A DNA stretch of 42,193 bases from a virus. The stretch spans positions 1 through 42,193 of the IMG/VR virus record IMGVR_UViG_3300025536_000024; one strand, written 5' to 3'. Within the stretch, counting starts at the first letter, position 1; each line of letters begins with the position of its first letter. Positions 17,482 through 18,318 of the stretch are shown one piece after another. The notes beneath the pieces are model-generated. The model made no database searches. It was not told the DNA's origin and saw only the letters and a program-made list of their open reading frames with translations. Made by a program: the position numbers and the translations under genes.

Positions 17482-17555
17482 CGAAGTGTGGCGATAGGGC
17501 GCGTCGAGTTTTTACATTTCAAGTGAAGTAACTCAGTGCTTACAACCACGCTTCG
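17482..17555 (-). ncRNA. Y-RNA-like unit Y1 (74 nt, minimal)
   Basis: 10-bp terminal helix CGAAGCGUGG/CCACACUUCG (one C:A); junction GG-UUGUAAG ... CUAUCG-CC; block UUACUUCACU. Confidence 0.6.
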
Positions 17556-17567
17556 AGCTTCGAGCGC

Positions 17568-17650
17568 ACAGATGCGGCGATAAAGGCTGGAACGGTTGGA
17601 GGTTCCAGTTAGCAGTGGAGATGTAACCGTTCCATTACATCCGCATCTGT
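17568..17650 (-). ncRNA. Y-RNA-like unit Y2 (83 nt) with 27-nt apical loop
   Basis: Helix ACAGAUGCGG/CCGCAUCUGU, junction AUGUAAU ... UUUAUCG, second helix GGAACGGUU/AACCGUUCC; loop contains UGCUAACUGGA. Confidence 0.65.
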
Positions 17651-17670
17651 AAGCTGAAGAGTCGAATGCA

Positions 17671-17804
17671 GTGTTGCCGCGATTAAGCGGGACGGAGATT
17701 TTCGCGCTCTACCAACTGAGCTACTGAGCTTGCGCTCAGGCAGGACTCGAACCTGCGACCACGTCTTTAAGAGAGAAGTAACCGTCCCATGACAACGGCG
17801 ACAC
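17671..17804 (-). ncRNA. Y-RNA-like unit Y3 (134 nt) with circularly permuted tRNA-like domain (YrlA-like)
   Basis: Helix GUGUCGCCG/CGGCAACAC (C:A). T arm GCAGG-UUCGAGU-CCUGC (17740-17756), acceptor-like CUGAGC-GCAA-GCUCAG, then UA and D arm GCUC-AGUUGGUA-GAGC. Confidence 0.75.
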
Positions 17805-17822
17805 TATATTCGATGTATCAAA

Positions 17823-18026
17823 CGCAAGAATGTGGCGATGAGTGAGTGCAGAGCAGAGTTCGCTCGGTTCCCCTTGCAGGTCTCTGCGGACCAATCTCCA
17901 GCGACCACCTACGATGGTCACTTTTGGAGCAGTTAAGCGGGTCGAAACCCACGATAAGTCTTTCGACTCAATGCAACGAAGTTGTTGTAGTGATGTATCT
18001 GCGGCTCTTACAACCACATTCTTACG
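17823..18026 (-). ncRNA. Y-RNA-like unit Y4 (204 nt) with several hairpins
   Basis: 13-bp helix CGUAAGAAUGUGG/CCACAUUCUUGCG; same junction motifs; GAGUC-GAAA-GACUU and GUGGGU-UUCG-ACCCGC tetraloop hairpins. Confidence 0.55.
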
Positions 18027-18037
18027 TTCGATTGAGA

Positions 18038-18148
18038 CACCTGATGTGGCGATAGGGTGGAAGAGCGTGCGGAGTCGAACCGCGAGCCTGTCTTTCGATA
18101 GGTTTCAATCCAGTGAAGTAACTCTTTCCGTTACAACCACGTCAGGTG
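18038..18148 (-). ncRNA. Y-RNA-like unit Y5 (111 nt) with a T-arm-like hairpin
   Basis: 12-bp helix CACCUGACGUGG/CCACAUCAGGUG (C:A); stem GGAAAGAG/CUCUUCC; CCUAUC-GAAA-GACAGG; GCGG-UUCGACU-CCGC. Confidence 0.65.
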
Positions 18149-18166
18149 TCTCAATTATGTCAAAAC

Positions 18167-18318
18167 AGGGAGTGAGGTGCGGCGATTAACGCGGCGGGTT
18201 TTTCGATACTGGAGTCCTGCCGTTAGACGACACCGCCTGGTAGCAGTGCTGGGAGTCGAACCCAGATAACCAGTTTGGAGTGAAGTAGCCCAGTGCTTAC
18301 AACCGCATCTCACTCTCC
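18167..18318 (-). ncRNA. Y-RNA-like unit Y6 (about 152 nt) with permuted tRNA-like domain whose acceptor helix is closed by ACCA
   Basis: Order: ACUGG-UUAU-[CUGGG-UUCGACU-CCCAG]-CACUGCU-ACCA-GGCGGUG-UC-[GUC..GAC]-U-CCAGU; terminal helix GUGAGAUGCGG/CCGCACCUCAC. Confidence 0.7.

What the first reader, a model, noticed from the sequence alone, without database searches (positions are those of the whole stretch)
17482..18318. Six tandem Y-RNA-like structured RNAs directly upstream of a phage Ro60/TROVE gene
The 840 nt between a sigma70-like promoter (18333-18359) and the Ro60 leader lie on the minus strand, the same sense as the Ro60 gene at 16040-17446. They resolve into six back-to-back units: 17482-17555, 17568-17650, 17671-17804, 17823-18026, 18038-18148 and 18167-18318. 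Each unit is closed by a 9-13 bp terminal helix.

All six share the same junction. The 5' strand ends G[UC][GC]G followed by [UA]UGU[AC]A. The 3' strand is preceded by [UA]AUCG and then C[CG][AG]C. A second conserved block, UAC[UA]UC[AU]C, follows 7-9 nt further in.

The apical parts differ between units. They range from minimal loops, through GAAA/GCAA/UUCG tetraloop hairpins and T arms, to complete tRNA-like domains. T loops and GNRA loops read correctly only in the minus sense.

Bacterial Ro60 (Rsr) is known to partner with YrlA-type Y RNAs encoded next to rsr, and Ro60 plus Y RNA has been reported in some phages. I cannot match a six-member, modularly diversified array in a 42-kb phage to anything described.
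Basis: partly seen in the sequence, partly recalled or inferred. Interest (0 to 1): 0.85.

Follow-up and report, generated by a model that had tools for sequence, protein, structure and literature searches.

The report
Six-member Y-RNA array beside phage Ro60
A ~42-kb phage carries six back-to-back structured RNA genes directly upstream of its Ro60 gene; all six share one conserved "handle" related to bacterial Y RNAs but carry different tops (tRNA mimic, T-arm, hairpin bundles), an expanded and modular version of a known RNA-protein partnership that standard annotation misses.

Summary
Six self-closing RNA domains lie on the minus strand at 17481-18315, between a conserved extended -10 promoter and the Ro60/TROVE gene. 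All six share one handle: closing helix, 1-nt bulge, U.G/G-C, loop UAA / NNYU-AU, 8-9 bp stem 2, then YUAC-UUC.

Across 27 units from 8 related phages the handle shows strong covariation: 89% of cells paired versus 64% when shuffled, and 18 of 21 pairs carry compensatory changes. A covariance model of the handle finds five of the six units (E 1e-12 to 1e-14). It finds nothing else significant in the 42 kb.

Rfam's alignment maps the handle column for column onto the stem module of YrlA that holds the putative Ro60-binding site. Unit 3 has the full YrlA tRNA-like domain (53 bits, below the gathering score of 69). Unit 6 has a weaker version. Unit 5 has only a T arm, unit 4 is a five-hairpin bundle, and units 1-2 are minimal.

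Related phages carry 2-5 such units in the same position, so six is the top of a clade-wide range. Ro60 binding, transcription and processing are inferred, not shown.

Verdict: a real, new and expanded variant of the Ro60-Y RNA system.

The parts
18354..18359 (-). -35-like hexamer TTGACC of the array promoter
   Evidence: Read directly from the sequence. A 15-nt spacer separates it from the -10. A related TTGnCC block is conserved in relatives.
18333..18341 (-). Extended -10 element TGcTATAGT
   Evidence: TGnTATAGT or TGnTATATT lies 25-27 nt upstream of the first unit in the window and in L003, L004, L006, L007, L009 and L021. The consensus scan did not list it because of the 15-nt spacer.
18384..18407 (-). 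Terminator-like hairpin just upstream of the promoter; it separates the array from upstream transcription
   Evidence: Scan hit: 8-bp stem followed by a T-rich tail. This is a consensus match only.
18170..18315 (-). Unit 6 (146 nt): handle plus a YrlA-like tRNA-like module. T arm 18249-18265, acceptor-like hairpin 18231-18248, D-like arm 18214-18228.
   Evidence: Model R1 52.4 bits, E=1.7e-12. Rfam YrlA 22.1 bits, E=0.077. Fold; coordinates.
18034..18152 (-). Unit 5 (119 nt): handle plus a GAAA-capped hairpin (18087-18102) and a T arm only (18069-18083). YrlB-like layout.
   Evidence: R1 58.1 bits, E=4.2e-14. Fold z=-3.5. Coordinates.
17820..18029 (-). Unit 4 (210 nt): handle enclosing a five-hairpin bundle. 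Hairpins: UUCG-containing 17974-17987, GAAA 17956-17969, T-like 17937-17952, long hairpin 17896-17929, and 17853-17879.
   Evidence: 16/16-bp closing helix. Fold -86.7 kcal/mol, z=-6.4. Too long for model R1. The apical part is not conserved in relatives.
17669..17806 (-). Unit 3 (138 nt): handle plus the complete YrlA-type tRNA-like domain. V hairpin 17758-17779, T arm 17740-17756, GCAA-capped acceptor-like hairpin 17724-17739, D arm 17706-17721.
   Evidence: Rfam YrlA 53.2 bits, E=8e-11. R1 56.1 bits. In the alignment with 6 orthologues, 25 of 40 pairs show compensatory changes.
17563..17655 (-). Unit 2 (93 nt): handle (AUGUAA variant) with a perfect 8-9 bp stem 2 and a small apical loop or hairpin.
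   Evidence: R1 56 bits, E=1.6e-13. Fold z=-7.1.
17481..17556 (-). Unit 1 (76 nt): minimal unit, handle plus a short hairpin formed by UUACUUC pairing with GAA..GUAA.
   Evidence: R1 58.1 bits, E=4.2e-14. Orthologue-like units sit last before Ro60 in L021 and L175.
16040..17446 (-). Ro60/TROVE gene (468 aa). It starts 34 nt after unit 1, with no terminator in between.
   Evidence: Pfam TROVE and vWA_Ro60. PDB 9KOP/9L5Y phage phiLo Ro60 E=7.6e-23, and Rsr 2NVO. 1079 homologues at E<=1e-30. No terminator on the minus strand between 17481 and 17446.
19335..21847 (-). Context: array of 19 tRNA genes upstream on the same strand. The order tRNA array, Y array, Ro60 is conserved in relatives.
   Evidence: ARAGORN and Rfam. 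Same order in L004, L006, L009 and L021.

Best explanation
The 840 nt are an operon-like array of six paralogous Y-RNA-like non-coding RNAs. They belong to a diverged, phage-borne branch of the YrlA/YrlB kind and are transcribed with the phage Ro60 gene from a conserved extended -10 promoter.

Each RNA has two modules.

1. **A constant handle.** It consists of a long 5'/3' closing helix ending in G-G/C-C, one bulged A/U, U.G and G-C pairs, an asymmetric internal loop (5' UAA; 3' NNYU-AU), an 8-9 bp second stem, and then YUAC-UUC. It is homologous to the YrlA stem module that holds the putative Ro60-binding site. It most likely docks one Ro60 ring per RNA.

2. **A variable apical module.** The six tops are a full tRNA mimic, a weaker tRNA mimic, a T arm plus hairpin, a five-hairpin bundle, and two minimal tops. 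By analogy with characterised Y RNAs, this module tethers or gates Ro60 towards different partners such as PNPase, tRNA-processing or tRNA-modifying enzymes, or RNA-repair enzymes.

During infection the set would retarget RNA surveillance, decay or repair, working alongside the phage's 19 tRNAs.

**Shown here:** the structures, their covariation, their homology to YrlA, their linkage to Ro60, and the conserved promoter.

**Inferred:** transcription, processing into unit-sized RNAs, Ro60 binding at the handle, and the partners of the apical modules.
For: - **Motif and helix statistics**.
- **Handle covariation.** On 27 units from 8 phages, 89.0% of cells are paired versus 64.3% when shuffled (0 of 500 shuffles reach this). 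18 of 21 pairs have double changes. The covariation score is 0.678, versus 0.206 shuffled and at most 0.162 for slid registers. Stem 2 was not used for detection.
- **Model R1.** It finds 5 of 6 units at E 1e-12 to 4e-14, and the next hit in the window is E=0.26. In related loci every significant hit is on the Ro60 strand upstream of Ro60.
- **Rfam YrlA.** One sub-threshold match per locus, always on the unit-3-type orthologue.
- **Homology mapping.** Rfam's alignment maps stem 1, UUGUMA, stem 2, YUAC and AUCG onto YrlA P1, AUGCuu, P2, CUAc and cUuG.
- **tRNA-like domain.** The V, T, acceptor-like and D arms covary in 7 phages.
- **Handle-only DNA pattern.** It hits 2 of 2.9 million viral contigs, and both hits sit directly upstream of a Ro60 gene. 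The 20 hits in cellular genomes match the chance expectation and lack both a helix and Ro60.
- **Distant clades.** A related GG-WUGCCG...UACUUC signature occurs 1-3 times next to Ro60 genes of about 30% identity, either upstream or downstream.
- **Promoter** conserved in 7 phages.
- **Gene neighbours.** Relatives link Ro60 with RtcB, RNA ligase and Band-7, as in the bacterial rsr-Y RNA-rtcBA repair operon.
- **Precedent.** Phage phiLo Ro60 binds two upstream Y-like RNAs and host PNPase (PMC12135203).
Against: - No expression or binding data exist.
- No unit reaches Rfam's YrlA gathering score.
- The published recognition motif GNCGAAN0-1G is absent from the junction.
- Four of the six units give no Rfam match at all.
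- G.U versus A.C counts in the stems barely discriminate the strand once the invariant U.G is removed: 41 versus 36.
- No terminator separates the array from Ro60, so the units could remain part of the mRNA leader.
- The window has no RtcB or RNA ligase among its large ORFs.
- The host is unknown.
Confidence: 0.72

Rival explanations
1. The array is a cis-acting structured 5' leader of the Ro60 mRNA. Six Ro60-binding sites stay on the mRNA and let Ro60 autoregulate its own translation or stability, or assemble a beads-on-a-string particle. Free small RNAs are not released.
For: - There is no terminator between unit 1 and the Ro60 start, which lies 34 nt downstream.
- A single conserved promoter lies upstream of the whole array.
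- Units abut, with only 4-17 nt between them.
- phiLo Ro60 forms higher-order particles with its Y-like RNAs.
Against: - Bacterial Y RNAs are also co-transcribed in the rsr operon and still accumulate as separate RNAs (Chen 2014, PMC4201824).
- Elaborate, covarying tRNA-like modules are unnecessary for a simple operator.
- In distant clades, related units lie downstream of Ro60.
- Unit number and order vary freely between close relatives.
Confidence: 0.13
2. The handle is a processing or stability cassette, recognised for example by RNase III, RNase E or a phage nuclease. It is used to express diverse small RNAs, including tRNA-like decoys against tRNA-targeting defences. These RNAs would act independently of Ro60, and the linkage to Ro60 would be merely operonic.
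For: - The long closing helices, up to about 17-24 bp, resemble RNase III substrates.
- In L021 the same handle encloses a normal-topology tRNA-like domain that ARAGORN and Rfam call tRNA-Leu(UAA).
- The array sits next to large tRNA arrays.
- A phage Ro60-like protein encoded next to tRNA genes counters a defence system (PMC11482910).
Against: - The handle aligns to the YrlA module thought to bind Ro60.
- Both handle-only pattern hits in viral contigs sit directly upstream of Ro60.
- A related signature follows Ro60 in clades at 30% identity regardless of position.
- The invariant positions cluster at the bulged junction rather than at the helix ends, where cleavage would occur.
Confidence: 0.1
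3. The units are decayed or rearranged tRNA genes left over from the adjacent tRNA array, without a function of their own.
For: - T-arm and D-arm sequences occur in units 3-6.
- The tRNA array lies 1 kb upstream on the same strand.
Against: - ARAGORN and Rfam call no tRNA in any of the six units; the best score is 16.1 bits against a gathering score of 29.
- The shared handle is not a tRNA feature, and it covaries across 8 phages.
- Units 1 and 2 have no tRNA-like part.
- The permuted T, acceptor-like, D order is the specific YrlA arrangement and is conserved with compensatory changes.
Confidence: 0.02
4. The repeats act at the DNA level, as protein-binding iterons, an origin or recombination sites, rather than as RNA.
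For: - The copies are tandem and carry an invariant short core.
- The plus strand also folds well, as any complement of a structured RNA does.
Against: - The conservation pattern is that of helices: sequences change but pairing is kept.
- U.G is invariant in 27 of 27 units and would be an A.C mismatch on the other strand.
- T loops, D loops and the YrlA matches read only on the Ro60 strand.
- The orientation always matches Ro60.
Confidence: 0.02

Closest known systems
YrlA (Rfam RF02553), the bacterial tRNA-like Y RNA encoded next to rsr/Ro60 (Chen et al. 2014, PMC4201824; Wang et al. 2018, bioRxiv 10.1101/312249)
   Same: - Two-module plan: a 5'/3' stem module with the putative Ro60 site plus an effector module.
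- Same strand as Ro60 and within 1 kb of it.
- Unit 3 has the V, T, acceptor-like and D arrangement, with YUAY at the start of the V region.
- The handle aligns column for column with YrlA P1, internal loop and P2.
   Different: - All scores are below the Rfam gathering score (32-53 bits against 69).
- The junction reads GYSG-WUGUMA instead of GNCGAAN0-1G.
- The 3' side has an invariant AUCG-CC.
- Here the handle is shared by six paralogues, of which only two have a tRNA-like domain.
YrlB of Salmonella and Mycobacterium smegmatis, and the D. radiodurans Yrn1/Yrn2 cluster (2-4 small RNAs encoded beside rsr)
   Same: - Several different Y RNAs are encoded side by side next to Ro60.
- The partners share the Ro60-binding region but differ in the effector module.
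- Some keep only a T arm, like unit 5 (Chen 2014).
   Different: - The known sets have 2-4 members, while this one has six in 840 nt, nearly abutting, under one promoter.
- Apical modules range from almost nothing to a 135-nt five-hairpin bundle.
- The large, non-tRNA-like apical modules are not conserved even between related phages.
Thermus phage phiLo Ro60 with Yrl1 and Yrl2 (PMC12135203)
   Same: - A phage-encoded Ro60, and the closest solved structure to this protein (E=7.6e-23).
- Y-like RNAs encoded directly upstream of the gene.
- Binding to Ro60 and to host PNPase was shown for that system.
   Different: - phiLo has two RNAs, which were found through a CGAA motif in an internal bulge.
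- No shared handle of the kind seen here is reported there, and no tRNA-like modules or array.
- The protein match is distant (84.5 bits, E=7.6e-23).
Ro60/YrlA, Band-7 and RtcB RNA-repair gene neighbourhoods (Burroughs & Aravind 2016, as cited in bioRxiv 10.1101/312249; rsr-yrlBA-rtcBA operon, PMC7790460)
   Same: - The window has a Band-7/SPFH gene (23535-24347) and a vWA gene upstream of the tRNA array.
- Relatives place RtcB and RNA ligase right after Ro60, and Band-7 nearby.
   Different: - The window itself lacks RtcB and RNA ligase among its large ORFs.
- The system is phage-borne and coupled to a 19-tRNA array.

Membership tests
Y RNA (Ro60-associated ncRNA, general definition) | [quoted passage not shown] | tested here: met
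   All six units meet it. Closing helices are 11-16 bp or longer, followed by a conserved asymmetric internal loop, stem 2 and an apical module. Covariation is shown.
Y RNA (Ro60-associated ncRNA, general definition) | Physically bound by Ro60 | not testable with these tools
   This needs RIP or EMSA. The only indirect evidence is strict genomic linkage.
Y RNA (Ro60-associated ncRNA, general definition) | Conserved bulged helix that serves as the Ro60 site (GGUCCGA-type in metazoa and Deinococcus) | tested here: inconclusive
   A conserved bulged helix exists: GG, a 1-nt bulge, then U.G and G-C, invariant in 27 of 27 units. Its sequence differs from the metazoan site.
YrlA (RF02553) | Reaches the Rfam gathering score (69 bits) | tested here: not met
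   Unit 3 scores 53.2 bits (E=8e-11) and unit 6 scores 22.1 bits. The other units give no match. Orthologues score 32-47 bits.
YrlA (RF02553) | GNCGAAN0-1G motif near the 5' end | tested here: not met
   The only exact match in the region is inside an apical hairpin of unit 4, starting at 17967. At the homologous junction position the units read GYSGWUG.
YrlA (RF02553) | tRNA-like effector domain with a T arm, an acceptor-like stem-loop and a D arm in that permuted order, plus YUAY at the start of the V region | tested here: met
   Met for unit 3 and loosely for unit 6. Not met for units 1, 2, 4 and 5, although YUAC is present in all six.
YrlA (RF02553) | Encoded within 4 kb of Ro60 on the same strand | tested here: met
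   The units lie 35-870 nt upstream of the Ro60 start, on the same strand.
tRNA | Cloverleaf recognised by ARAGORN or by Rfam RF00005 at the gathering score | tested here: not met
   No tRNA is called inside 17481-18315. The best score is 16.1 bits against a gathering score of 29.

The most novel reading that the evidence does not exclude
The handle is a portable Ro60-docking cassette. The phage clade uses it to display a fast-evolving library of cargo RNAs, including permuted tRNA mimics, a near-normal tRNA (L021), T arms and multi-hairpin bundles. One Ro60 protein is thereby re-addressed to several host machines or defence nucleases at once. This would be a combinatorial, RNA-programmed adaptor system for taking over or protecting host RNA metabolism, possibly working with the adjacent tRNA array to repair or shield tRNAs from anti-phage nucleases.
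Probability: 0.25. Interest if true: 0.82.

Novelty: new variant of a known kind. Interest (0 to 1): 0.62.

Why it matters
Y RNAs are known as modular tethers and gates for Ro60. How bacterial and phage Ro60 proteins recognise them, and what the effector modules do, remains largely open.

**A natural experiment.** This clade offers dozens of paralogous and orthologous RNAs in which one module is nearly invariant and the other is free to vary.
- This pinpoints a minimal candidate Ro60 site: the GG/bulge/U.G-G.C junction with the UAA and AUCG loop.
- That site can be tested directly by EMSA and mutagenesis.
- It also supplies a panel of effector modules for partner identification.

**Annotation gap.** Standard annotation using the Rfam gathering threshold misses an entire Y-RNA subfamily. 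This subfamily sits in a large group of uncultured ~42-kb phages, with over 1000 Ro60 homologues at E<=1e-30.

**Biological context.** The order tRNA array, Y array, Ro60, followed by RtcB or RNA ligase in some relatives, supports the idea that phages carry RNA surveillance or repair kits relevant to phage-host conflict.

Tried and rejected
**DNA similarity to deposited phages**
- Megablast of the locus found nothing.
- Sensitive blastn found only a 73-nt match of unit 6's tRNA-like part to an unannotated stretch of Myxococcus phage Mx1.

**Covariance model R1**
- With filters off it lost the large units, because apical inserts are penalised.
- Default filters worked for units up to about 145 nt but not for the 210-nt unit 4.

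**MAFFT alignments of whole small units** mis-registered stem 2 because the 3' linker varies from 2 to 8 nt. Excising the apical modules solved this.

**A relaxed regex detector** produced many chance hits with 8-9 bp helices. I used it only where the helix was at least 10 bp and ATCG was present.

**Collection scans**
- A 14-base handle pattern in viral contigs returned mostly chance hits: only 3 of 120 loci have a Ro60 gene.
- The 21-base pattern in cellular genomes returned 20 hits, all consistent with chance. No host clue was obtained.

**Other attempts**
- Aligning the large apical modules of units 4 and 6 with relatives showed no conserved apical structure.
- Rfam at the gathering score on 20 distant Ro60 loci found no YrlA, so no copy-number baseline could be drawn.
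- CGAA enrichment in the region is weak: 9 observed against about 5 expected.
- G.U versus A.C counts gave little strand information beyond the invariant U.G.
- The 2020 Annual Review on bacterial Ro60 and the supplements of Chen 2014 are not held. The largest Y-RNA copy number reported per locus could therefore not be checked exhaustively.
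Full report
**1. What is there**

Read on the minus strand, the 840 nt between 18330 and 17447 separate a promoter-like site from a 468-aa ORF at 16040-17446. That ORF is a genuine Ro60:
- Pfam TROVE E=8.5e-21, plus the Ro60 vWA domain.
- The closest solved structures are the Thermus phage phiLo Ro60 (9KOP/9L5Y, E=7.6e-23) and D. radiodurans Rsr.

The window holds 9 matches in all, against 1.56 +/- 1.36 expected. TACWTCWC follows once per unit, and ATCGC[CG] precedes each 3' helix strand.

I wrote a detector that requires the 5' motif, the YUAC block, a 3' NTCG and a closing helix of at least 7 bp.
- It returns exactly six units in the window: 17481-17556, 17563-17655, 17669-17806, 17820-18029, 18034-18152 and 18170-18315.
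- It returns nothing else on either strand of the 42 kb.
- Over 577 kb of window plus fetched loci it never fires on the strand opposite Ro60, although the bare 5' motif occurs 34 times there.

The entire 884-nt leader folds into six self-contained domains in the minimum-free-energy structure (z = -9.8). The closing helices extend to about 17-24 bp, so the units almost abut.

**2. The shared handle is a conserved, covarying RNA structure**

Ro60 has 1079 homologues at E<=1e-30. Many lie on 40-49 kb contigs, so this is a large clade of uncultured phages of similar size. I fetched loci around relatives with 42-76% identical Ro60.

Every close relative has 2-5 units of the same type directly upstream of Ro60 on the same strand:

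| Locus | Units found |
|---|---|
| window | 6 |
| L006 | 5 |
| L021 | 5 |
| L003 | 4 |
| L009 | 4 |
| L004 | 3 |
| L007 | 3 |
| L008 | 2 |
| L010 | 2 |
| L100 | 2 |
| L230 | at least 2 |

I aligned the cores of 27 units from 8 phages with the apical modules excised (alignment A3). The structure is:
- stem 1, ending in G-G/C-C;
- one bulged A/U;
- U.G and G-C pairs;
- an internal loop, 5' UAA and 3' NNYU-AU;
- stem 2.

The pair counts were:
- 89.0% of cells paired, versus 64.3% in column shuffles (0 of 500 shuffles reach the observed value).
- 18 of 21 pairs carry compensatory double changes.
- Covariation score 0.678, versus 0.206 shuffled and at most 0.162 when the 3' partners are slid by 1-3 columns.

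Stem 1 was part of my detection rule, so its pairing is partly circular. Stem 2 was not, and all 8 of its pairs show double changes. The junction pairs G11-C56, U13.G55 and G14-C54 are invariant in 27 of 27 units.

A covariance model of this core (R1) finds five of the six window units at E 1.7e-12 to 4.2e-14. The next hit in the window is at E=0.26. Unit 4 is 210 nt and too long for the model, but it has a 16/16-bp closing helix and folds with z=-6.4.

**3. Relation to known Y RNAs**

At Rfam's gathering thresholds the region is empty. Only the 19 upstream tRNAs are called. In E-value mode:
- Unit 3 matches YrlA at 53.2 bits (E=8e-11).
- Unit 6 matches at 22.1 bits (E=0.077).
- Each related locus also has one sub-threshold YrlA match (32-47 bits), always on the orthologue of unit 3.

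Seven such orthologues fold into stem 1, stem 2, a V hairpin formed by the conserved ACUUC, a T arm, an acceptor-like hairpin and a D arm. 25 of the 40 pairs show compensatory changes. This is the YrlA layout described by Chen et al. 2014.

Rfam's alignment of the L009 orthologue spans the whole unit and gives the homology map:

| This handle | YrlA consensus |
|---|---|
| stem 1 | P1 |
| UUGUMA | AUGCuu |
| stem 2 | ggGgaa/uucCcc |
| YUAC | CUAc |
| linker + AUCG | aaAaAcUuG |

The handle is therefore a diverged version of the YrlA module thought to bind Ro60. The published motif GNCGAAN0-1G is not present at that position. The units read GYSGWUG there, and the only exact match in the region lies in an apical hairpin of unit 4. 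For that reason, and because of the sub-threshold scores, I do not file the units as YrlA members. I treat them as a new subfamily of the same kind.

**4. The apical modules differ**

| Unit | Apical module |
|---|---|
| 3 | Full tRNA mimic |
| 6 | T arm, acceptor-like hairpin and D-like arm |
| 5 | GAAA-capped hairpin plus a T arm only, like the published description of YrlB |
| 4 | Five hairpins, including a T-like arm |
| 1 and 2 | Little beyond the handle |

Across 34 units from the clade, the commonest apical elements are:
- T loops (GGUUCGA), in 10 units;
- D arms, in 7-8 units;
- the short motifs UUGGUU (8 units) and CUCCAA (7 units).

The large non-tRNA modules do not align between phages. 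The pattern is a constant handle with rapidly changing cargo. In L021 the same handle encloses a normal-topology tRNA-like domain, called tRNA-Leu(UAA) by ARAGORN and scoring 49 bits with Rfam. There the conserved UUACUUC forms the 5' acceptor strand.

**5. Linkage to Ro60**

- A DNA pattern made only from the handle (21 specified bases) hits two of 2.9 million viral contigs. Both hits lie directly upstream of a Ro60 gene on the same strand.
- The same pattern gives 20 hits in 596 Gb of cellular genomes, where I estimate about 25 by chance. None has a closing helix or a Ro60 gene.
- In Ro60 clades of only about 30% identity, a related signature (GG-WUGCCG...UACUUC) occurs 1-3 times next to Ro60, either upstream or downstream. 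The signature follows the gene, not a position.

**6. Transcription and context**

- The consensus scan skipped it because of the short spacer.
- The extended -10 lies 25-27 nt upstream of the first unit in seven phages. It is preceded by a conserved ATCCACA...TTGnCC block.
- A terminator-like hairpin (18384-18407) lies just upstream of the promoter.
- There is no terminator between unit 1 and the Ro60 start codon.

This suggests one transcript carrying the six units and Ro60.

The window looks like a complete podovirus-type genome. It encodes terminase, a P22-like portal, an SU10-type adaptor, ERF and YqaJ recombination proteins, GroEL and GroES, a Band-7/SPFH protein and a vWA protein.

Relatives place RtcB immediately after Ro60 (L230), an RNA ligase nearby (L003, L230), and Band-7 genes close by. 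This is the gene company of the bacterial rsr-Y RNA-rtcBA repair operon. The order tRNA array, Y array, Ro60 recurs in L004, L006, L009 and L021.

**7. Mechanism**

*Shown:*
- Six paralogous structured RNAs with a covarying handle homologous to the YrlA Ro60 module.
- Strict linkage to Ro60.
- A conserved promoter.

*Inferred from characterised systems:*
- Each unit docks a Ro60 ring through the handle. The precedents are D. radiodurans Yrn1-Rsr-PNPase, Salmonella YrlA and YrlB, and phiLo Ro60 with Yrl1, Yrl2 and host PNPase.
- The apical module either tethers Ro60 to a partner or gates it.
- The different tops give one protein several addresses.
- The precursor must be cut in the 4-17-nt spacers or at the helix bases. 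Candidates are RNase E, RNase III, or RNase P for the tRNA-like units, since M. smegmatis YrlA is cleaved by RNase P.

*Rivals:* an uncleaved autoregulatory leader; a Ro60-independent expression cassette for decoy RNAs; decayed tRNA genes; and DNA-level repeats. The last two are contradicted by the covariation and by the strand-specific features.

**8. Novelty**

Phage Ro60 with Y-like RNAs is known:
- 22 phages in Chen 2014.
- Two RNAs in phiLo, 2025.
- A Ro60-like anti-defence protein next to tRNA genes in Bas63.

Known loci carry 2-4 Y RNAs. Three full-text searches found no description of a six-member array, of this handle, or of a handle-plus-variable-cargo family. Two key sources were not available.

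I rate it a new variant of a known kind. It is interesting mainly as a natural dissection of the Ro60-binding module and as a family that annotation pipelines miss.

Noticed in passing
L021 2769-2898: A unit with the standard handle encloses a normal-topology tRNA-like domain, not the permuted YrlA order. ARAGORN calls it tRNA-Leu(UAA) and Rfam scores it at 49 bits. The conserved UUACUUC forms its 5' acceptor strand, with two mismatches.
   Followed up: partly
window 18369-18375 and 18333-18359; same positions upstream of the first unit in L003, L004, L006, L009, L021: A conserved block ATCCACA(G)...GGG.C.TTG(a/t)CC precedes the extended -10. It may be a clade-specific promoter or regulator site for the array.
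   Followed up: partly
alignment A3 columns 7 and 60 (for example window 18142/18044 in unit 5 and 17550/17487 in unit 1): The fifth pair below the junction is unpaired in 12 of 27 units, while its neighbours are almost always paired. In the units I inspected by eye it is a C.A mismatch alternating with U-A. This could be a conserved non-canonical position.
   Followed up: no
L230 4001-6675 and 9031-9416; L003 6027-6650: In relatives, Ro60 is followed directly by RtcB (L230), and RNA-ligase genes lie nearby. Band-7/SPFH genes recur near the array: window 23535-24347, and L003, L004, L006, L230 and L231. This mirrors the bacterial Ro60/RtcB/Band-7 RNA-repair neighbourhoods.
   Followed up: partly
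L021 150-503: A phage-borne tmRNA gene (Rfam 59.7 bits; ARAGORN gives a tag peptide) sits inside the tRNA array upstream of the Y array.
   Followed up: no
L009 1329-1402: ARAGORN reports a tRNA with a four-base anticodon (ttaa) in an enlarged loop. It could be a frameshift-suppressor-type tRNA or a tRNA-like RNA.
   Followed up: no
window 18214-18286 (unit 6 tRNA-like part): This was the only DNA-level match to deposited phages: 81% identity over 73 nt to an unannotated stretch of Myxococcus phage Mx1 (OR576727.2, 45187-45259). It may be a tRNA-like or Y-like RNA there.
   Followed up: no
apical parts of window units 2, 4 and 6 (and L003, L006, L021 units): The short motif CUCCAA(A) recurs in 7 of 34 apical modules, and UUGGUU in 8. 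Their function is unknown.
   Followed up: partly
window 17377-17446: A public gene call for the identical protein starts at the second ATG (445 aa, P0001). Homologues align from residue 1 of the 468-aa form. Neither start has an obvious, well-spaced Shine-Dalgarno sequence.
   Followed up: partly
window 19568-19673, 19747-19892, 19969-20125, 20859-21402: Gaps of 100-540 nt lie inside the tRNA array with no tRNA call. One holds the only consensus promoter hit of the region (19630-19657, minus strand). The handle model finds nothing there.
   Followed up: partly
L066 491-800, L072 3060-3215, L080 5111-5766, L085 5105-5515, L062 2300: Ro60 genes of about 30% identity are flanked, upstream or downstream, by 1-3 copies of a related 5' signature, GG-(A/U)UGCCG-N10-12-UACUUC. 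None reaches the Rfam YrlA threshold.
   Followed up: partly
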